Positions 29,836 through 40,063 of a stretch of DNA of 64,000 nt are shown piece after piece. A program made the translations under genes and the position numbers. The notes below the pieces were generated by a model. The model saw only the letters and a list, made by a program, of their open reading frames with translations, had not been told where the DNA came from and ran no database searches. Source of the stretch: Shigella phage ESh30; the sequence record ON528740. One strand, written 5' to 3'. Position 1 is the stretch's first letter. Each line of letters begins with the position of its first letter.

Positions 29836-30151
29836 TATTCGTCCGGTCGATGAGACCGGTCTTTCAGAAAAAGAACTTTCAATTAAGAAAGAAAAGGATG
29901 AAATAGCAAAGCTTCTTGATCGTCAAGAAAATGGATTTATTATTGAAAAAATGGTAGAAGAGTTTGGAATGAGTTATCTTGAAGCTACGACAGCATTCTT
30001 GGAAGAAAACTCTATTCCTGAAACTCAATTTGCTAAATTTATTCCTTCGGGTATAATTGAAAAAATTCAGTCAGAAGCTATTGACGAAAATCTTTTACGT
30101 CCTTCTGTTGTTCGTTGTGAAAAAACTAATACATTAGATTTTCTACTATGA
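29813..30151 (+). CDS. 33: late transcription co-activator gp33 (112 aa)
   Basis: MTQFSLNDIRPVDETGLSEKELSIKKEKDEIAKLLDRQENGFIIEKMVEEFGMSYLEATTAFLEEN...; ORF track 29804 (TTG) trimmed to ATG 29813. Confidence 0.8.
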   Translation: MTQFSLNDIRPVDETGLSEKELSIKKEKDEIAKLLDRQENGFIIEKMVEEFGMSYLEATTAFLEENSIPETQFAKFIPSGIIEKIQSEAIDENLLRPSVVRCEKTNTLDFLL

Positions 30152-30801
30152 TTAAACTCCGCATGCCTGCTGGTGGTGAAAGATACATTGATGGTAAATC
30201 AGTTTATAAATTATACTTAATGATAAAACAGCATATGAATGGAAAGTATGATGTTATTAAGTATAATTGGTGCATGCGGGTGTCTGATGCCGCTTATCAA
30301 AAGCGAAGGGATAAGTATTTTTTCCAGAAGTTATCAGAAAAATATAAATTAAAGGAACTTGCTTTAATCTTTATAAGCAATCTTGTTGCTAACCAGGATG
30401 CTTGGATTGGCGACATCTCTGACGCTGATGCACTTGTGTTTTATCGTGAATATATCGGACGCTTAAAGCAAATTAAATTTAAGTTTGAAGAAGATATTCG
30501 CAACATTTATTATTTTAGTAAGAAAGTTGAAGTTTCTGCTTTTAAAGAAATCTTTGAGTATAATCCAAAAGTTCAATCAAGTTATATTTTTAAACTACTT
30601 CAATCGAATATAATTTCGTTTGAAACGTTTATCTTGCTTGATTCGTTTTTAAATATAATTGATAAACACGATGAACAGACTGATAATTTAGTCTGGAATA
30701 ATTATTCTATAAAGTTAAAGGCTTATAGAAAAATTTTAAATATTGATTCACAGAAAGCTAAAAATGTTTTCATTGAAACTGTGAAATCTTGTAAGTATTG
30801 A
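30148..30801 (+). CDS. 59: helicase loader gp59 (217 aa)
   Basis: 217-aa ORF, same length as T4 gp59, immediately downstream of 33. Confidence 0.82.
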   Translation: MIKLRMPAGGERYIDGKSVYKLYLMIKQHMNGKYDVIKYNWCMRVSDAAYQKRRDKYFFQKLSEKYKLKELALIFISNLVANQDAWIGDISDADALVFYREYIGRLKQIKFKFEEDIRNIYYFSKKVEVSAFKEIFEYNPKVQSSYIFKLLQSNIISFETFILLDSFLNIIDKHDEQTDNLVWNNYSIKLKAYRKILNIDSQKAKNVFIETVKSCKY

Positions 30802-30802
30802 T

Positions 30803-31435
30803 ATGAATATAGTATATTGGTTTACATTTGAAGACCGTGTCAAAAATAAGACTCCGCCATACTACTATATCGGTAGTAAATTAAATTGCTCATTTGAGAA
30901 CGGAATAATATATGACTCTTCCGGAAAGGAATACTGGAGCTCATGTAAACAAAAAAGATTTTTGAATGCGCTAATGCTTCAAAAACCGAGCGTTAAAATA
31001 ATTCAAATTGATGATGACTTGGATGTTATTGAAGCAGAACGAAAATACCAACTTGAAGTAAATGCCAGAGATAATCCAGACTATTTTAATCTGGTATATG
31101 CTGGTGGTGGATTTGGTGTGAGTGGTGAAACTCATCCAGCCAAAGACCCGGAAGTTAGAGAGCATATGAGATTGGCTAATTATATGAACCGTGACGATTT
31201 TAGACCTTGGAAAACATCACGAGCTAATATAGAGTCTTGGAAATTATCTCATATTGCTTACGAGAATTATGTGTTATTATTATCCTCTAATCTGTACGGT
31301 AAAACTCCCGGATGGCGAAGAGTTAAAGGTAATATAAATATAACTGATACAACTGCTAAATCGATGGTAAAGTATTTCAACTCAGGTTGGATACCTCTCG
31401 AAGACCCAGAGTATTGCGAATTATGCCAGCTATGA
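30803..31435 (+). CDS. segG: GIY-YIG homing endonuclease, SegG-like (210 aa)
   Basis: N-terminal GIY-YIG-like motif IVYWFTF...YYIGSK; located between 59 and 32 where T4 carries segG. Confidence 0.6.
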   Translation: MNIVYWFTFEDRVKNKTPPYYYIGSKLNCSFENGIIYDSSGKEYWSSCKQKRFLNALMLQKPSVKIIQIDDDLDVIEAERKYQLEVNARDNPDYFNLVYAGGGFGVSGETHPAKDPEVREHMRLANYMNRDDFRPWKTSRANIESWKLSHIAYENYVLLLSSNLYGKTPGWRRVKGNINITDTTAKSMVKYFNSGWIPLEDPEYCELCQL

Positions 31436-31489
31436 GGTAAAGTGTCATAGCACCAACTGTTAATTAAATTAAATTAAAAAGGAAATAAA

Positions 31490-32395
31490 ATGTTTAAACG
31501 TAAATCTACTGCTGAACTTGCTGCACAAATGGCTAAACTGAATGGCAATAAAGGTTTTTCTTCTGAAGATAAAGGCGAGTGGAAGCTGAAACTCGATAAT
31601 GCGGGTAACGGTCAAGCAGTAATTCGTTTTCTTCCGTCTAAAAATGATGAACAAGCACCATTCGCAATTCTTGTAAATCACGGTTTCAAGAAAAATGGTA
31701 AATGGTATATTGAAACATGTTCATCTACCCATGGTGATTACGATTCTTGTCCAGTATGTCAGTACATCAGTAAAAATGATCTGTACAACACTGACAATAA
31801 AGAGTACAGTCTTGTTAAACGTAAAACTTCTTACTGGGCTAATATTCTTGTTGTAAAAGACCCAGCTGCTCCAGAAAATGAAGGTAAAGTATTTAAATAT
31901 CGTTTCGGTAAGAAAATCTGGGATAAAATCAACGCGATGATTGCGGTTGATGTTGAAATGGGTGAAACTCCGGTTGATGTAACTTGTCCGTGGGAAGGTG
32001 CTAACTTTGTACTGAAAGTTAAACAAGTTTCTGGTTTTAGTAACTACGACGAATCTAAATTCCTGAATCAATCTGCGATTCCAAACATTGACGATGAATC
32101 TTTCCAGAAAGAACTGTTCGAACAAATGGTTGACCTTTCTGAAATGACTTCTAAAGATAAATTCAAATCGTTTGAAGAACTGAGCACTAAATTCGGTCAA
32201 GTTATGGGAACTGCTGTGATGGGCGGTGCTGCTGCAACTGCTGCTAAGAAAGCTGATAAAGTTGCTGATGATTTGGATGCATTCAATGTTGATGACTTCA
32301 ATACAAAAACTGAAGATGATTTTATGAGCTCAAGCTCTGGCAGTTCATCTAGTGCTGATGACACGGACCTGGATGACCTTTTGAATGACCTTTAA
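31490..32395 (+). CDS. 32: single-stranded DNA-binding protein gp32 (301 aa)
   Basis: [92 protein letters not shown]... recognised as T4 gp32 with Zn-binding Cys/His cluster and acidic C-terminus. Confidence 0.95.
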
Positions 32396-34437: not shown

Positions 34438-34785
34438 ATGAATTTTAATTATTACCCTATTCTATTAGAAAAAGACACGAAACAGCCAAAGTGGCAGGGT
34501 CCTCAGTTTATTAAAGGTGTCTATCAATTAGTAGTTCCTAAAGACAAGATTTATAGCAGTTGTTTCACTGAATCCGCTTGCAGTATTTTCGGTAATAGTT
34601 CTCCGTATTGGAATTTTGACATAAAGCTGGATAGAAATATCGATATTTGGTTGAAAGCTATGGATATTGGTAATATCATGTTTGATGAGAATAATTATCA
34701 TATTATTGGTCGCTTTTCCAAACGTGGTAAAGAATTATATTTCACACCTGAAATTGAGAGAAAATTTGATGCTAAACCGTATTGA
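34438..34785 (+). CDS. hypothetical protein (115 aa) carried on a cassette inserted between frd and td
   Basis: ORF track; own RBS ggcggaaat; no recognisable motif; not expected at this position from T4. Confidence 0.5.
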   Translation: MNFNYYPILLEKDTKQPKWQGPQFIKGVYQLVVPKDKIYSSCFTESACSIFGNSSPYWNFDIKLDRNIDIWLKAMDIGNIMFDENNYHIIGRFSKRGKELYFTPEIERKFDAKPY

Positions 34786-34830: not shown

Positions 34831-36011
34831 ATGAAACAATACCAAGATTTAATTAAAGACATTTTTGAAAATGGCTATGAAACCGATGACCGAACAGGCA
34901 CAGGAACAATTGCTTTATTCGGTACTAAATTACGCTGGGATTTAACTAAAGGTTTTCCTGCGGTAACAACTAAGAAGCTCGCCTGGAAAGCTTGCATTGC
35001 TGAGCTACTTTGGTTTTTATCAGGAAGCACAAATGTCAATGATTTACGATTAATTCAGCATGATTCGTTAATCCAAGGCAAAACAGTTTGGGATGAAAAT
35101 TACGAAAATCAGGCAAAAGATTTAGGATACCATAGTGGTGAACTTGGCCCAATTTATGGAAAACAGTGGCGCGATTTTGGCGGTGTAGACCAAATTATAG
35201 AAGTTATTGATCGTATTAAAAAACTACCAAGTGATAGGCGTCAAATTGTTTCTGCGTGGAATCCAGCTGAACTTAAATATATGGCATTACCACCTTGTCA
35301 TATGTTCTATCAGTTTAATGTGCGTAATGGTTATCTTGATTTACAATGGTATCAACGCAGTGTAGATGTTTTCTTGGGTTAATTGAGGCCTAGGTATAAG
35401 GTGACTTATACTTGTAATCTATCTAAACGGGGGACCTCTCTAGTAGACAATCCCGTGCTAAATTGTAGGACTACCCTTTAATAATTTCATCAGGATTAGT
35501 TACTTACCGTGTAAAATCTGATAAATGGAATTGGTTCTACATAAATGCCTAACGACTATCCCTTTGGGGAGTAGGGTCAAGTGACTCGAAACGATAGACA
35601 ACTTGCTTTAACAAGTTGAAGATATAGTCTGATCTGCATGGTGACATGCAGCTGGATATAATTCCGGGGTAAGATTAACGACCTTATCTGAACATAATGC
35701 TTCCATTTAATATTGCATCATATGCTACGTTAGTTCATATTGTAGCTAAGATGTGTAATCTTATTCCGGGAGATTTGATATTTTCCGGTGGTAATACTCA
35801 TATCTATATGAATCACGTAGAACAATGTAAAGAAATTTTGCGTCGTGAACCTAAAGAGCTTTGTGAACTGGTAATAGGCGGATTGCCTTATAAATTCCGC
35901 TATCTTTCTACTAAAGAACAATTGGAATACATTCTTAAACTCAGGCCTAAAGATTTCGTTCTCAAAGATTATCAGTCCCACGGCGTCTTGAAAGGAAAAA
36001 TGGCGGTGTAA
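34831..36011 (+). CDS. td: thymidylate synthase, interrupted by a group I intron: join(34831..35379, 35700..36011), 286 aa
   Basis: Exon 1 MKQYQDLIKDIFENGYETDDRTGTG...QRSVDVFLG and exon 2 LPFNIASYATLVHIVAKMCNLIPGD...KGKMAV join in frame to give a 286-aa thymidylate synthase. Confidence 0.92.
35380..35699 (+). ncRNA. self-splicing group I intron in td (320 nt), lacking an intact homing-endonuclease ORF
   Basis: Begins UAAUUGAGGCC right after exon-terminal U, ends ...CUGAACAUAAUG (terminal G); conserved core segments of the T4 td intron recognisable. Confidence 0.88.
35484..35552 (+). pseudogene. 3'-terminal remnant of homing endonuclease I-TevI (last ~22 codons)
   Basis: Translation IISSGLVTYRVKSDKWNWFYINA* matches the C-terminus of T4 I-TevI; no start codon or GIY-YIG domain upstream. 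Confidence 0.75.
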
Positions 36012-36298: not shown

Positions 36299-36578
36299 AT
36301 ACAAATCCGACTTTGATGTGAATATTCACCGTGGTACATTTTGGGGAAATTACGTCGGTAAAGATGCTGGCAGCCGGGAGGCTGCCATTGAATTATTCAA
36401 AAAAGATTTTATACGTCGAATTAAATCCGGAGAAATAACTAAAGCACATTTAGAGCCTTTACGTGGAATGAGGCTAGGATGCACATGTAAACCAAAGCCG
36501 TGTCATGGTGATATAATAGCTCATATAGTTAACCGATTGTTTAAAGACGATTTTCAAGTTGAGGACTTATGCAATTAA
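36252..36578 (+). CDS. hypothetical protein (108 aa) with Cys/His motif [12 protein letters not shown]
   Basis: ORF track; possible metal-binding motif. Confidence 0.45.
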
Positions 36579-38833
36579 TTAATGTTATCAAAAGTAGTGG
36601 TGTTTCTCAGAGCTTTGACCCACAAAAAATTATTAAAGTTTTATCTTGGGCAGCTGAGGGAACATCAGTAGATCCTTATGAATTATATGAAAATATTAAA
36701 TCTTATCTCCGTGATGGAATGACAACTGATGATATTCAGACTATTGTCATTAAGGCCGCTGCGAATTCTATTTCGGTTGAAGAGCCTGATTATCAATATG
36801 TAGCTGCACGTTGTCTAATGTTCGCTCTTCGTAAGCATGTTTATGGGCAGTATGAACCGCGTTCATTTATTGACCATATTTCTTACTGTGTAAATGAAGG
36901 TAAATACGACCCTGAACTGTTGTCAAAATATTCAGCAGAAGAAATTACATTTTTAGAATCAAAAATTAAGCACGAACGGGATATGGAATTTACTTATTCC
37001 GGGGCGATGCAATTAAAAGAAAAATATCTAGTTAAAGATAAAACCACTGGTCAAATTTATGAAACTCCACAGTTTGCATTTATGACTATTGGAATGGCCT
37101 TGCATCAAGATGAACCTGTTGATAGATTAAAACACGTTATTCGTTTTTATGAAGCAGTATCTACTCGACAGATTTCATTGCCAACTCCTATTATGGCTGG
37201 TTGTCGTACTCCGACTCGACAGTTCAGTTCATGCGTTGTTATTGAGGCAGGTGATTCATTGAAGTCTATCAATAAGGCTTCCGCTTCAATTGTTGAATAT
37301 ATCTCTAAACGCGCTGGAATTGGTATTAATGTTGGCATGATTCGTGCCGAAGGTTCTAAGATTGGCATGGGTGAAGTACGTCATACTGGTGTTATTCCTT
37401 TTTGGAAACATTTTCAGACTGCAGTTAAATCATGTTCACAGGGTGGAATTCGTGGCGGCGCTGCTACTGCTTATTATCCTATTTGGCATTTGGAAGTTGA
37501 AAATCTTCTCGTTTTGAAAAATAACAAAGGCGTAGAAGAAAACCGCATTCGTCATATGGATTATGGCGTTCAACTGAATGATTTGATGATGGAACGTTTT
37601 GGAAAGAACGATTACATTACTTTGTTCAGTCCCCATGAAATGGGTGGAGAGCTTTATTATTCTTATTTTAAAGACCAAGACCGTTTCCGTGAATTATACG
37701 AAGCAGCAGAAAAAGACCCTAATATTCGTAAAAAGCGTATTAAAGCCCGTGAACTATTTGAATTGCTCATGACTGAACGCTCAGGAACAGCAAGAATTTA
37801 TGTACAGTTCATTGATAATACGAATAACTATACTCCGTTTATTCGTGAAAAGGCACCTATTCGTCAGAGTAACTTGTGCTGTGAAATTGCTATTCCAACA
37901 AATGATGTGAATAGTCCTGATGCTGAAATTGGATTGTGCACGTTATCTGCATTTGTGTTGGATAACTTCGATTGGCAAGACCAAGATAAAATTAATGAAT
38001 TGGCAGAAGTCCAAGTTCGTGCTCTTGATAATCTTTTGGATTACCAAGGATATCCAGTTCCTGAAGCAGAAAAAGCTAAAAAGCGTCGTAACCTTGGTGT
38101 AGGTGTTACTAACTATGCAGCTTGGCTGGCAAGTAACTTTGCTTCTTATGAAGATGCTAACGATTTAACACATGAACTATTTGAGAGATTACAGTATGGA
38201 CTCATTAAAGCATCCATTAAGCTCGCCAAAGAAAAAGGACCTTGCGAATATTATTCAGACACTCGTTGGTCTCGAGGCGAATTACCTATCGACTGGTACA
38301 ATAAAAAGATTGACCAAATCGCAGCTCCAAAATACGTTTGTGACTGGTCGTCGCTGCGGGAAGACCTTAAGCTCTTTGGCATCCGTAATAGCACATTATC
38401 GGCACTTATGCCATGTGAGTCATCTTCCCAAGTTTCTAACAGTACAAACGGTATCGAGCCTCCACGTGGACCAGTCTCTGTTAAAGAATCAAAAGAGGGC
38501 TCCTTTAATCAAGTCGTGCCCAATATTGAGCATAACATAGACCTATATGATTATACGTGGAAATTAGCTAAGAAAGGTAATAAACCTTATCTTACGCAGG
38601 TAGCTATTATGCTGAAATGGGTATGTCAATCAGCTTCAGCGAATACATACTATGACCCGCAGATTTTTCCAAAAGGAAAGGTTCCAATGTCAATAATGAT
38701 TGATGACATGCTATACGGATGGTATTATGGCATTAAAAATTTCTATTATCATAATACCCGTGATGGTTCTGGTACTGATGATTATGAAATAGAAACTCCA
38801 AAAGCTGAAGATTGTTCATCCTGTAAATTATGA
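36569..38833 (+). CDS. nrdA: aerobic ribonucleoside-diphosphate reductase large subunit (754 aa)
   Basis: 754 aa, same length as T4 NrdA; N-terminal ATP-cone and class I RNR catalytic core. Confidence 0.95.
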   Translation: MQLINVIKSSGVSQSFDPQKIIKVLSWAAEGTSVDPYELYENIKSYLRDGMTTDDIQTIVIKAAANSISVEEPDYQYVAARCLMFALRKHVYGQYEPRSFIDHISYCVNEGKYDPELLSKYSAEEITFLESKIKHERDMEFTYSGAMQLKEKYLVKDKTTGQIYETPQFAFMTIGMALHQDEPVDRLKHVIRFYEAVSTRQISLPTPIMAGCRTPTRQFSSCVVIEAGDSLKSINKASASIVEYISKRAGIGINVGMIRAEGSKIGMGEVRHTGVIPFWKHFQTAVKSCSQGGIRGGAATAYYPIWHLEVENLLVLKNNKGVEENRIRHMDYGVQLNDLMMERFGKNDYITLFSPHEMGGELYYSYFKDQDRFRELYEAAEKDPNIRKKRIKARELFELLMTERSGTARIYVQFIDNTNNYTPFIREKAPIRQSNLCCEIAIPTNDVNSPDAEIGLCTLSAFVLDNFDWQDQDKINELAEVQVRALDNLLDYQGYPVPEAEKAKKRRNLGVGVTNYAAWLASNFASYEDANDLTHELFERLQYGLIKASIKLAKEKGPCEYYSDTRWSRGELPIDWYNKKIDQIAAPKYVCDWSSLREDLKLFGIRNSTLSALMPCESSSQVSNSTNGIEPPRGPVSVKESKEGSFNQVVPNIEHNIDLYDYTWKLAKKGNKPYLTQVAIMLKWVCQSASANTYYDPQIFPKGKVPMSIMIDDMLYGWYYGIKNFYYHNTRDGSGTDDYEIETPKAEDCSSCKL

Positions 38834-38884
38834 TATAATTTGACTCACGGACGAGTCACCAACTATTAACTAAGTGGAAAATTT

Positions 38885-40063
38885 ATGAGCACAGTTTTTA
38901 ATACAAACCCAGTTGATGTTTTAAAAGAACCTATGTTTTTTGGTTCAGGTCTTGGTATTGCGCGTTATGATATTCAACGGCATCGAGTATTTGAAGAACT
39001 TACAGAGAAGTCCTTATCATTTTTCTGGCGCCCGGAAGAAGTAAACTTAATGATGGATGCTGCACAGTTTAATAAGCTTCCTCAGTATCAGCAAAATATT
39101 TTTACTAACAACTTGAAGTATCAATCACTTTTGGATAGCATTCAGGGTCGTGCGCCGTCTGCTGTACTTATGTCATTAATTTCAAACCCAAGCCTTGATA
39201 CGTGGGTTGCTACATGGACTTTTAGTGAAACTATTCACAGTCGTTCATATACACATATCATGCGAAATCTTTATACTGATCCATCGAAGGTATTTGATGA
39301 GATTGTATTAGATGAAGCTATTATGAAACGTGCTGAATCCATTGGACGTTATTATGATGATGTTCTGATTAAAACTCGTGAATGGGAAAATGCTAAAGAA
39401 TTTGTAGAACTATCTAAAGAATCTCCTGATGCCGACTTTCGTTTAAACCGAGCTATTAAACAAGAAGCCGAAGCTAAACGTGCTTTAATGAAATCTCTTT
39501 ACCTCTGTTTGCACGTTATTAATGCCTTAGAAGCTATTCGTTTTTATGTATCTTTCGCATGCACTTTTAACTTCCATAAGAACATGGAAATCATGGAAGG
39601 TAATGCCAAGATTATGAAGTTCATTGCGCGTGATGAGCAGCTTCATCTTAAAGGCACCCAATATATTATTCGTCAACTTCAACTTGGCACTGATGGCGAT
39701 GAATGGGTTAAAATTGCTCAAGAGTGTGAACAAGAAGCAGTTGATATTTTCATGGAAGTTAACCGCCAAGAAAAAGATTGGGCAGTTCATTTATTTAAAG
39801 ATGGAGATGTTCCTGGATTAAATACAAATAGCATGTGGAGCTTTATTGATTACTTAACTGTATCTCGTATGAAGCAGTGTGGTCTTCCATGCCCAATTAC
39901 CGATGCTCCGGTTAAACATCCATATCCTTGGATTCGTGAATATCTTAATTCTGATAATGTTCAATCTGCGCCACAAGAAGTAGAATTGTCATCTTACCTT
40001 GTTGCACAGATTGATAATGATGTTGATGATAAAGTTATGATGAGTTTTAAAAAATACTTTTAA
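38885..40063 (+). CDS. nrdB: ribonucleoside-diphosphate reductase small subunit (392 aa), uninterrupted
   Basis: Di-iron/tyrosyl-radical R2 protein; single continuous ORF with no intron. Confidence 0.92.
   Translation: MSTVFNTNPVDVLKEPMFFGSGLGIARYDIQRHRVFEELTEKSLSFFWRPEEVNLMMDAAQFNKLPQYQQNIFTNNLKYQSLLDSIQGRAPSAVLMSLISNPSLDTWVATWTFSETIHSRSYTHIMRNLYTDPSKVFDEIVLDEAIMKRAESIGRYYDDVLIKTREWENAKEFVELSKESPDADFRLNRAIKQEAEAKRALMKSLYLCLHVINALEAIRFYVSFACTFNFHKNMEIMEGNAKIMKFIARDEQLHLKGTQYIIRQLQLGTDGDEWVKIAQECEQEAVDIFMEVNRQEKDWAVHLFKDGDVPGLNTNSMWSFIDYLTVSRMKQCGLPCPITDAPVKHPYPWIREYLNSDNVQSAPQEVELSSYLVAQIDNDVDDKVMMSFKKYF

What the first reader, a model, noticed from the sequence alone, without database searches (positions are those of the whole stretch)
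30803..31435. SegG-like GIY-YIG homing endonuclease immediately upstream of gene 32
The 210-aa ORF has an N-terminal GIY-YIG-like motif (VYWFTF ... YYIGSK) and sits between 59 and 32, where T4 carries segG, which cleaves gene 32 of segG-less relatives and drives marker exclusion. Its presence predicts that this phage excludes gene 32 alleles from segG-less phages in mixed infection.
Basis: partly seen in the sequence, partly recalled or inferred. Interest (0 to 1): 0.38.

Follow-up and report, generated by a model that had tools for sequence, protein, structure and literature searches.

The report
Phage T4 SegG homing endonuclease gene
The 210-codon gene just upstream of gene 32 encodes a protein identical to phage T4's SegG, a selfish DNA-cutting enzyme already shown experimentally to spread itself and the neighbouring gene 32 allele into related phages, so the finding is correct but ordinary.

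Summary
The ORF at 30803-31435 (+) is real and lies between gene 59 (helicase loader) and gene 32 (ssDNA-binding protein). Its protein is 100% identical to the annotated SegG of phage T4, and its DNA differs from T4's at 1 of 633 positions. The window itself is a T4 relative, not T4. SegG is an experimentally characterised free-standing homing endonuclease that cuts gene 32 of segG-less phage T2 and causes exclusion of T2 gene 32 markers (Liu et al. 2003, cited in PMC2988022, PMC2330249 and PMC535899).

That reflects weak Pfam coverage rather than a different fold:
- T4 SegF, also a validated endonuclease, has no Pfam hit either.
- A SegG-family N-domain profile matches the SegA-E GIY-YIG domains (hhalign 96.4%, E 1e-9; HNH control 0.1%).
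- The Tyr, Tyr-Ile-Gly, Glu and Asn core is 98-100% conserved.
- The best PDB fold hit is the I-TevI catalytic domain, though it is not significant.
- The canonical Arg could not be placed; it is also unalignable in SegA-E.

Comparison of 24 close relatives shows clean presence/absence of segG, about 2.5-fold lower diversity in segG than in its flanks, and linkage only to the first ~250 nt of gene 32. Verdict: already known, low interest.

The parts
30803..31435 (+). segG coding sequence (210 aa plus stop), a free-standing homing endonuclease gene
   Evidence: ORF. Protein 100% identical to annotated T4 SegG. DNA differs from T4 at one position, 31309. PHROG 7504 at 1.3e-133.
30803..31111 (+). 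N-terminal catalytic domain (residues 1-103), a divergent GIY-YIG module. Core residues are Y5, Y22-I23-G24, E79 and N96. It carries two insertions relative to SegA-E: residues ~10-15, including R12, and residues ~34-42.
   Evidence: AF2 N-domain model with pLDDT 94.1 and pTM 0.85. hhalign against SegA-E gives 96.4%, E 1.1e-9. HMM hits to SegA, SegE and I-TevII at 5e-5 to 1.5e-4. Conservation. Best PDB hits are I-TevI 1LN0 and 1MK0, TM about 0.5, E about 1.
31112..31432 (+). Flexible linker (residues ~104-109) and C-terminal all-helical domain (residues ~110-210), the presumed DNA-binding and target-recognition module
   Evidence: The model shows pLDDT <50 at residues 104-107, followed by helices 116-209 at pLDDT 85-96. 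PHROG 'homing endonuclease' families 25551, 26163 and 655 match residues 124-206 only. Non-significant HTH/winged-helix fold hits. DNA binding is inferred, not shown.
30802..31425 (.). Extent of the insertion relative to segG-less relatives (about 624 bp, replaced there by about 38 bp of unrelated spacer)
   Evidence: Alignment with RB32, KarlGJung and T2. Homology stops right after the gene 59 stop codon and resumes at CCAGCTATGAGG, so the last ~10 nt of the segG ORF are shared with segG-less genomes.
31333..31340 (+). T4 late-promoter consensus TATAAATA embedded in the segG coding sequence, 157 nt upstream of the gene 32 ATG
   Evidence: Motif found. The review PMC2988022 states that the middle and late promoters of gene 32 lie inside segG. 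Promoter activity was not tested here.
31429..31451 (+). Stem GCUAUGA...UCAUAGC of the gene 32 translational operator (pseudoknot region); the segG stop codon lies inside its 5' arm
   Evidence: Hairpin in the MFE and centroid folds (the 91-nt fold as a whole is not better than shuffles, z = -0.05). PMC535899 describes the overlap of the pseudoknot with the segG reading frame. The loop differs between segG+ (TAAAGTG) and segG- (TCATACATCG) genomes.
31437..31732 (+). Gene 32 leader and first ~245 nt of coding sequence, whose polymorphisms are linked to segG presence (inferred co-conversion tract); the SegG cut site is inferred to lie near its distal end
   Evidence: In 12 segG+ and 12 segG- genomes, alleles are fixed or nearly fixed between groups at 31437-31552 and partially at 31597-31732. 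No association remains from 31781 onward, and none exists in gene 59. T2, the known substrate, has the minus allele at all these sites.

Best explanation
The ORF is segG, the free-standing homing endonuclease gene of phage T4, carried here by a close T4 relative. The protein has an N-terminal divergent GIY-YIG nuclease domain joined by a flexible linker to a C-terminal helical DNA-binding domain.

The proposed mechanism is as follows. In a cell co-infected with a segG-less relative, SegG makes a site-specific double-strand break inside that phage's gene 32, a few hundred bp downstream of the empty segG site. The break is resected and repaired by recombination using the segG+ genome as template. 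This copies segG and the adjoining start of gene 32 into the recipient ('intronless homing'). Genetically this appears as exclusion of the recipient's gene 32 markers.

The gene is co-transcribed with gene 59 and has no Shine-Dalgarno sequence of its own. It also contains the gene 32 late promoter and overlaps the gene 32 translational operator, which makes clean loss of the element costly.

Shown here: identity to T4 SegG, domain architecture, homology to SegA-E, presence/absence polymorphism, and a linkage and diversity signature. Taken from the literature: endonuclease activity, gene 32 as target, and marker exclusion. Inferred: that this phage behaves like T4, the approximate position of the cut, and DNA binding by the C-terminal domain.
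For: Identity and context:
- The protein is 100% identical to annotated T4 SegG, in the same gene order 33-59-segG-32. One nucleotide differs in 633.

Literature:
- SegG is listed as an active free-standing GIY-YIG endonuclease inserted between 32 and 59 with target 32 (PMC2988022 Table 1).
- It is responsible for exclusion of T2L gene 32 (PMC2330249).
- It mediates its own transfer together with gene 32 to T2 (PMC535899).

Fold and family:
- hhalign of a 126-sequence N-domain profile against SegA-E N-domains gives 96.4%, E 1.1e-9, 95 columns; the HNH Mob control gives 0.1%.
- hmmsearch with Z = 288 gives SegA 5e-5, SegE 7e-5, I-TevII 1.5e-4 and SegD/B/C 2-6e-3, while MobA-C score 11-20.
- SegA, SegB and I-TevI pass Pfam PF01541, and SegC, SegD and SegE pass PF19835.
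- Conservation is Y5 98%, Y22 100%, G24 100%, E79 99% and N96 100%.
- BFVD fold hits at E 1e-4 to 2e-3 go to proteins named GIY-YIG or Seg-like, and to T4 P04523.
- The top PDB hit in both searches is the I-TevI catalytic domain.
- 84 of 129 family members carry NUMOD3 modules downstream of the domain.

Mobility signature:
- About 140 of about 500 close relatives carry segG and the rest lack it, with identical boundaries.
- PYps15T (segG+) and Paracelsus (segG-) are filed in the same species.
- Nucleotide diversity is 0.0095 in segG against 0.023 in gene 59 and 0.026 in distal gene 32.
- Linkage is one-sided, to the proximal part of gene 32 only.
- T2 carries the unlinked alleles.
Against: - No Pfam or NCBIfam GIY-YIG hit for the protein at E <= 10. 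None of 29 homologues has a precomputed Pfam domain, and PF01541 is hit by none of 129 wider relatives.
- PDB sequence and profile searches find nothing.
- Foldseek matches to I-TevI are not significant (E 0.86-2.3, TM 0.47-0.52).
- No conserved Arg at the I-TevI R27 position.
- The GIY-to-YIG spacing is 16 residues (Y5 to Y22, intervening) rather than the usual ~10.
- Nothing about cleavage or exclusion was measured for this phage.
- The primary paper (Liu et al. 2003) could not be read.
- The linkage panel is 24 non-independent genomes without phylogenetic correction.
Confidence: 0.93

Rival explanations
1. The gene is an inactive or domesticated remnant. It would be retained only because the gene 32 late and middle promoters and part of the gene 32 translational operator are embedded in it, and it would no longer act as a homing endonuclease in this phage.
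For: The late-promoter consensus lies inside the ORF and the stop codon lies inside the operator stem. The review argues that embedded promoters favour retention. One metagenomic relative (L008) has a frameshifted copy. There is no Shine-Dalgarno sequence in front of the ATG.
Against: The ORF is intact and the protein is identical to the T4 enzyme, for which activity and homing are reported. The ORF is intact in 11 of 12 segG+ genomes examined. Low diversity and one-sided linkage indicate recent spread rather than passive retention.
Confidence: 0.04
2. The nuclease domain is not GIY-YIG. It would instead be an unrelated or new nuclease fold that merely shares a YIG-like tripeptide, so the literature's family assignment would be wrong.
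For: No Pfam, NCBIfam or PDB sequence match. Foldseek against the PDB is not significant. No alignable catalytic Arg. Unusual motif spacing.
Against: hhalign gives 96.4%, E 1e-9 to SegA-E, which themselves pass the Pfam GIY-YIG models. HMM hits reach six T4 GIY-YIG enzymes but not the HNH controls. Seven wider relatives hit PF19835 at up to 3.3e-4. The beta-beta-alpha-beta-alpha order, with invariant Tyr, Tyr, Gly, Glu and Asn at the expected elements, fits the fold. I-TevI is the top-ranked PDB fold of 350,542 chains in two independent searches. Significant BFVD hits go to GIY-YIG-annotated proteins.
Confidence: 0.03

Closest known systems
Phage T4 SegG (gene 32.1), Liu, Belle, Shub, Belfort and Edgell 2003, J Mol Biol 334:13
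   Same: Identical protein sequence (210 of 210 residues), the same insertion site between genes 59 and 32, the same junctions, and the same embedded late-promoter motif and operator overlap.
   Different: The host genome is not T4. It is about 96-97% identical to the nearest records over 24 kb and differs from T4 at about 35 positions in genes 59 and 32. It lacks I-TevI and mobE and has an extra ORF between frd and td. One synonymous nucleotide difference lies in segG itself.
T4 SegA-SegE (free-standing GIY-YIG homing endonucleases)
   Same: Homologous N-terminal catalytic domain (hhalign 96.4%, E 1.1e-9). It shares the Y..YIG....Y.(G/S)S....E....YN..GG pattern, a two-domain architecture, intergenic location and a distant cleavage site.
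   Different: SegG has two insertions in the N-domain: 6 residues in the first hairpin, carrying R12, and 9 residues forming an extra beta-hairpin. It has Lys26 where SegA-E have His. It has no NUMOD3 or other Pfam-recognisable DNA-binding module, and it falls below every Pfam GIY-YIG model.
I-TevI (td intron-encoded GIY-YIG endonuclease; PDB 1LN0, 1MK0)
   Same: Best-ranked solved structure for the N-domain. Y5/Y22/G24/E79/N96 correspond to Y6/Y17/G19/E75/N90. Both have a bipartite nuclease-linker-DNA-binding design.
   Different: The similarity is not statistically significant at sequence or fold level (hhalign 1-2%, Foldseek E about 1). There is no counterpart of the helix segment carrying R27. 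SegG is free-standing rather than intron-encoded, and it cuts hundreds of bp from its own insertion site rather than within 25 bp.
T4 SegF (gene 69 region; targets gene 56, excludes T2 gene 56)
   Same: A free-standing Seg endonuclease causing localised marker exclusion of T2. Like SegG it is invisible to Pfam. The SegG model hits T4 P04523 at 5.5e-4; equating that entry with SegF rests on my own knowledge.
   Different: A different target gene and insertion site. There is no significant direct HMM match between the SegG-family profile and SegF (E = 4).

Membership tests
T4 SegG orthologue | Protein sequence identity to T4 SegG | tested here: met
   100% over 210 aa to MT984581.1 segG and many other T4-group records.
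T4 SegG orthologue | Located between gene 59 and gene 32, same orientation | tested here: met
   Pfam identifies both neighbours. The order is the same as in annotated T4.
T4 SegG orthologue | Site-specific double-strand cleavage within gene 32 of segG-less phage, and exclusion of its gene 32 markers | not testable with these tools
   Reported for T4 against T2 in the literature. Supported here only indirectly, by segG-linked gene 32 alleles.
GIY-YIG nuclease superfamily | 'GIY' strand with conserved Tyr | tested here: met
   I3-V4-Y5; Y5 is conserved in 98% of 126 family representatives and lies on strand 2-8 of the model.
GIY-YIG nuclease superfamily | 'YIG' strand with conserved Tyr and Gly, about 10-11 residues after GIY | tested here: inconclusive
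   Y22-I23-G24 are 100/95/100% conserved on strand 21-26. The spacing is 16 residues, however, because of a 6-residue insertion relative to SegA-E.
GIY-YIG nuclease superfamily | Catalytic Arg on the first helix (I-TevI R27) | tested here: inconclusive
   R52 on helix 51-59 is conserved in only 3% of the family. The conserved basic residues are K26 (99%) and R12 (82%). The R27 segment is also absent from the SegA-E alignment with I-TevI.
GIY-YIG nuclease superfamily | Catalytic Glu (I-TevI E75) and structural Asn (N90) | tested here: met
   E79 is 99% conserved and N96 100% conserved. They align with the E and N of SegA-E and of I-TevI.
GIY-YIG nuclease superfamily | Match to a curated GIY-YIG profile (Pfam PF01541 or PF19835; NCBIfam) | tested here: not met
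   No hit at E <= 10. Only 1 of 27 close relatives and 7 of 129 wider relatives hit PF19835 weakly. The validated enzyme SegF also fails this test, so the test has low sensitivity for this group.
GIY-YIG nuclease superfamily | Profile-profile homology to accepted members | tested here: met
   hhalign gives 96.4%, E 1.1e-9 against SegA-E, with an HNH control at 0.1%. hmmsearch reaches E 5e-5 to 6e-3 against six T4 GIY-YIG enzymes.
GIY-YIG nuclease superfamily | GIY-YIG alpha/beta fold | tested here: inconclusive
   The confident model (pLDDT 94) has beta-beta-alpha-beta-alpha order. The I-TevI catalytic domain ranks first in the PDB, but at E 0.86 and TM 0.47-0.52. Significant BFVD hits go to GIY-YIG-annotated phage proteins.
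Free-standing homing endonuclease gene | Presence/absence polymorphism at one intergenic site among close relatives, with sharp boundaries | tested here: met
   About 140 records carry the gene and about 360 lack it at >=95% flank identity. The boundaries are identical against RB32, KarlGJung and T2. Both states occur within one species.
Free-standing homing endonuclease gene | Signature of horizontal spread with co-conversion of the target-side flank | tested here: met
   Diversity is 0.0095 in segG against 0.023-0.026 in the flanks. Linkage reaches only to gene 32 positions 31437-31732. The panel is 24 genomes and is not phylogenetically corrected.
HNH homing endonucleases (T4 Mob proteins) | HNH catalytic motif and profile similarity | tested here: not met
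   hhalign gives 0.1% against MobA-C N-terminal regions, and hmmsearch gives E 11-20. No HNH Pfam hit.

The most novel reading that the evidence does not exclude
The SegG-type N-domain (278 clusters at 50% identity, none recognised by Pfam PF01541) may be a distinct GIY-YIG subfamily. In it the canonical helix-1 Arg would be functionally replaced by the near-invariant Lys26 that follows YIGS, by Arg12 on a family-specific hairpin insertion, or by both. This would be an altered active-site solution that has not been described structurally. Separately, the natural-population linkage pattern places the SegG cut roughly 240-290 nt into gene 32 (window ~31730-31780), near the T76/N76 polymorphism.
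Probability: 0.3. Interest if true: 0.3.

Novelty: already known. Interest (0 to 1): 0.1.

Why it matters
It matters little as a discovery. SegG, its site, its target and its marker-exclusion phenotype have been in the literature since 2003, and this copy is identical in protein sequence.

Three points have some practical value:
- Annotation pipelines that rely on Pfam or NCBIfam will miss the nuclease family of SegG and SegF, so 'no GIY-YIG hit' should not be read as evidence against.
- The phage in this window carries segG but lacks I-TevI and mobE. This illustrates how individual homing endonuclease genes assort independently among T4 relatives.
- Public genomes alone show the one-sided co-conversion footprint expected from a cut inside gene 32.

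Tried and rejected
- Pfam and NCBIfam scans of the protein found nothing, and Pfam scans of its relatives found no usable GIY-YIG hit.
- PDB sequence search with the single protein and with a 27-sequence profile gave only chance hits.
- Foldseek of the full model and of the N-domain model against the PDB ranked I-TevI first but not significantly. This is treated as supportive rank only.
- The close-family HMM (25 sequences) against T4 endonucleases had no power (all E > 2). Only the 126-sequence profile worked.
- hhalign of the SegG family directly against single-sequence I-TevI gave 1-2% probability.
- The primary SegG paper (PubMed 14596796) is not held. Other papers citing it give no cleavage-site coordinates.
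- The IMG/VR scan for gp32 loci yielded only four close relatives, too few for the linkage test. It did show that only 2 of 80 dereplicated loci have a SegG-type ORF upstream of gene 32.
- Rfam over the region gave only a sub-threshold chance hit.
- RNA folding of the gene 32 leader was not better than shuffles (z = -0.05); a pseudoknot cannot be scored by that tool.
- A strict MotA-box search gave one candidate inside segG (30975) that I did not pursue.
- The HNH alternative was rejected.

Full report
**Observation.** It is ATG-initiated, 210 codons long, at window 30803..31435 on the + strand. It begins one nucleotide after the stop codon of the upstream gene (TGA-T-ATG) and ends 54 nt before the next ATG. 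Pfam identifies the upstream gene as the gp59 helicase loader (30148..30801; both gp59 domains, about 1e-53). It identifies the downstream gene as the gp32 single-strand DNA-binding protein (31490..32395; 7e-67). The quoted motifs VYWFTF and YYIGSK are residues 4-9 and 21-26.

**Identity.** A tblastn search of the phage collection finds the protein at 100% identity in many records, including phage T4 itself, where it is annotated 'segG: homing endonuclease' (H40). The annotated T4 region has the same order: rnh-dsbA-33-59-segG-32-frd.3. At DNA level segG differs from T4 at one position (31309). The window is not T4. Over 24 kb its best matches are 96-97% identical, and genes 59 and 32 differ from T4 at about 35 positions. 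So this is segG itself, in a T4 relative of the genus Tequatrovirus.

**What is known.**
- The 2010 review by Edgell, Gibb and Belfort lists segG as a free-standing, demonstrably active GIY-YIG endonuclease inserted between 32 and 59 with gene 32 as its target.
- The same review states that the middle and late promoters of gene 32 lie inside segG, that the segG transcript is processed by RNase E, and that segG is inherited at high frequency in T4 x T2 co-infections (PMC2988022).
- Brok-Volchanskaya et al. state that SegG is responsible for exclusion of T2L gene 32 (PMC2330249).
- The primary paper (Liu et al. 2003, J Mol Biol 334:13) is not in the library.

None of 29 homologues has a precomputed Pfam domain. 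PDB sequence searches with the protein and with a family profile find nothing. I therefore tested membership in other ways.

1. Family size and architecture.
   - A profile of the N-terminal 106 residues, searched against 1.84 billion representatives, finds 278 clusters at E <= 1e-3.
   - The domain is almost always at the extreme N-terminus of proteins of 200-480 aa.
   - Of 129 of these relatives, 84 carry NUMOD3 modules and 7 hit Pfam SegE_GIY-YIG weakly (best 3.3e-4). None hits PF01541.
2. HMM search against T4 endonucleases.
   - I fetched all other annotated T4 homing endonucleases and searched them with a 126-sequence N-domain HMM at T4-proteome search space.
   - Results were SegA 5e-5, SegE 7e-5, I-TevII 1.5e-4, SegD 2e-3, SegB 3e-3 and SegC 6e-3.
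   - I-TevI and SegF were not significant, and the HNH enzymes MobA-C scored at noise level.
3. Profile-profile comparison.
   - Against SegA-E N-domains, hhalign gives 96.4% probability, E 1.1e-9, over 95 columns. The Mob control gives 0.1%.
   - SegA, SegB and I-TevI pass Pfam PF01541, and SegC, SegD and SegE pass PF19835.
   - SegF, a validated enzyme, has no Pfam hit at all. Pfam silence therefore reflects a sensitivity limit for this group.
4. Conserved residues.
   - Across 126 representatives, Y5 (98%), Y22 (100%), I23 (95%), G24 (100%), E79 (99%) and N96 (100%) are conserved.
   - They align with the GIY Tyr, the YIG Tyr and Gly, the catalytic Glu and the structural Asn of SegA-E and I-TevI.
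5. Structure.
   - AlphaFold models are confident: full length pLDDT 91.2, N-domain alone 94.1 with pTM 0.85.
   - They show beta-beta-alpha-beta-alpha order, a disordered linker at residues 104-107 and a helical C-terminal domain.
   - Against the PDB, the I-TevI catalytic domain ranks first in both searches, and 1LN0_B, 1LN0_A and 1MK0 are three of the top six for the N-domain. However E is 0.86-2.3 and TM 0.47-0.52, which is not significant.
   - Against viral predicted structures, hits at E 1e-4 to 2e-3 go to proteins named GIY-YIG or Seg-like, and to T4 P04523.

Taken together, the domain is a divergent member of the Seg branch of GIY-YIG.

**The Arg question.** The only Arg on the helix corresponding to I-TevI helix 1, R52, is conserved in 3% of the family. 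The conserved basic residues are K26 (99%) and R12 (82%; invariant in the close family). R12 sits on a 6-residue insertion in the first hairpin. In the hhalign alignment of I-TevI with SegA-E, the segment KDFEKRWKR that contains R27 is a gap in SegA-E. K26 of SegG aligns with a conserved His of SegA-E. An unalignable Arg is therefore common to the Seg group. I could not inspect model coordinates, so which residue supplies the positive charge remains open.

**Mobility signature in public genomes.**
- Of 846 records matching the 59-32 region, about 500 are >=95% identical in the flanks. About 140 of those contain segG, and the rest align with a 586-bp shorter span.
- Against RB32, KarlGJung and T2, homology ends directly after the gene 59 stop and resumes at CCAGCTATGAGG. 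The last ~10 nt of the segG ORF therefore belong to sequence shared with segG-less genomes, as Borjac-Natour et al. suggested.
- PYps15T (segG+) and Paracelsus (segG-) are filed under the same species.
- In a panel of 12 segG+ and 12 segG- genomes, variants at 31437-31552 (operator loop, leader, first 63 nt of gene 32) are fixed or nearly fixed between the groups. Association is partial at 31597-31732 and absent from 31781 on.
- In gene 59 there is no association, even 9 nt from the junction.
- Among segG+ genomes, nucleotide diversity is 0.0095 in segG and 0.0097 in the adjoining leader, against 0.023 in gene 59 and 0.026 in distal gene 32.
- T2, the substrate reported in the literature, has the segG-minus allele at every linked site, including gp32 A18, an extra Gly, and N76. 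The window has the T4-type alleles.
- This one-sided footprint is what a break inside gene 32 would leave when repaired from a segG+ template. It suggests a cut about 240-290 nt into gene 32.
- This is an inference from 24 non-independent genomes. My recollection that the published cut lies a few hundred bp from the insertion site could not be checked.

**Regulatory context.** The T4 late-promoter consensus TATAAATA lies inside segG at 31333, 157 nt before the gene 32 ATG. The segG stop codon lies in the 5' arm of the stem GCUAUGA/UCAUAGC of the gene 32 operator. There is no Shine-Dalgarno sequence before the segG ATG, consistent with the weak, coupled expression described for these genes.

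**Verdict.** The object is already known, and the only loose end is the identity of the active-site basic residue. Interest is low.

Noticed in passing
window 35370-35651 (td at 34831-35382 and 35697-36011): The thymidylate synthase gene is split by a group I intron (Rfam RF00028, 70.3 bits) that has no I-TevI ORF. It is an ORF-less td intron, unlike T4, where I-TevI sits in the intron.
   Followed up: partly
window 34438-34785: A 115-aa ORF of unknown function (phrog_1928, 1.3e-35) lies between frd and td. T4 has no such gene, because frd and td overlap there, but T2 has an ORF of the same length at this position.
   Followed up: partly
window 36569-40063: nrdA (754 aa) and nrdB (392 aa, uninterrupted) are separated by only 51 nt. 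This phage therefore lacks mobE and the nrdB intron with I-TevIII, although it carries segG.
   Followed up: no
L008 1800-2448 (IMGVR_UViG_3300045988_128797): The segG copy in this metagenomic relative is frameshifted, with a stop at codon 64 and two HMM fragments. This is either a decaying copy or an assembly error.
   Followed up: no
L088 656-1297 (phage PTE-Eco15); L094 827-1288 (phage PEC04): PTE-Eco15 SegG is 213 aa because of a 9-nt insertion. PEC04's segG is annotated from an internal start (462 nt), although the full 210-codon ORF is intact.
   Followed up: no
window 31486 and 31519 (gene 32 leader and codon 10): T4 itself carries the segG-minus-type alleles at these two positions, whereas the window and 10 of 12 segG+ genomes carry the other allele. 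This indicates small-scale mosaicism inside the linked tract.
   Followed up: no
L004 15592-16266 (T4 segF): T4 SegF, an experimentally validated Seg endonuclease, has no Pfam hit at E <= 0.01, and I-TevII stays below all curated cut-offs. Pfam coverage of T4 GIY-YIG enzymes is incomplete.
   Followed up: yes
phage records (H63-H90): Diverged SegG homologues (58% and 34-40% identity) occupy the same slot next to gene 59 in other T4-like genera. Homologues of the N-terminal half alone sit at other sites (next to endonuclease VII gene 49, and next to rpbA) with different C-terminal halves. This looks like domain shuffling between a common nuclease module and different DNA-binding modules.
   Followed up: no
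record OL964745.1 137448-138068 (H62): A record named 'Escherichia phage T4' carries a homologue only 71% identical to SegG, annotated as two homing-endonuclease features. This may be a different allele or a chimeric or mislabelled record.
   Followed up: no
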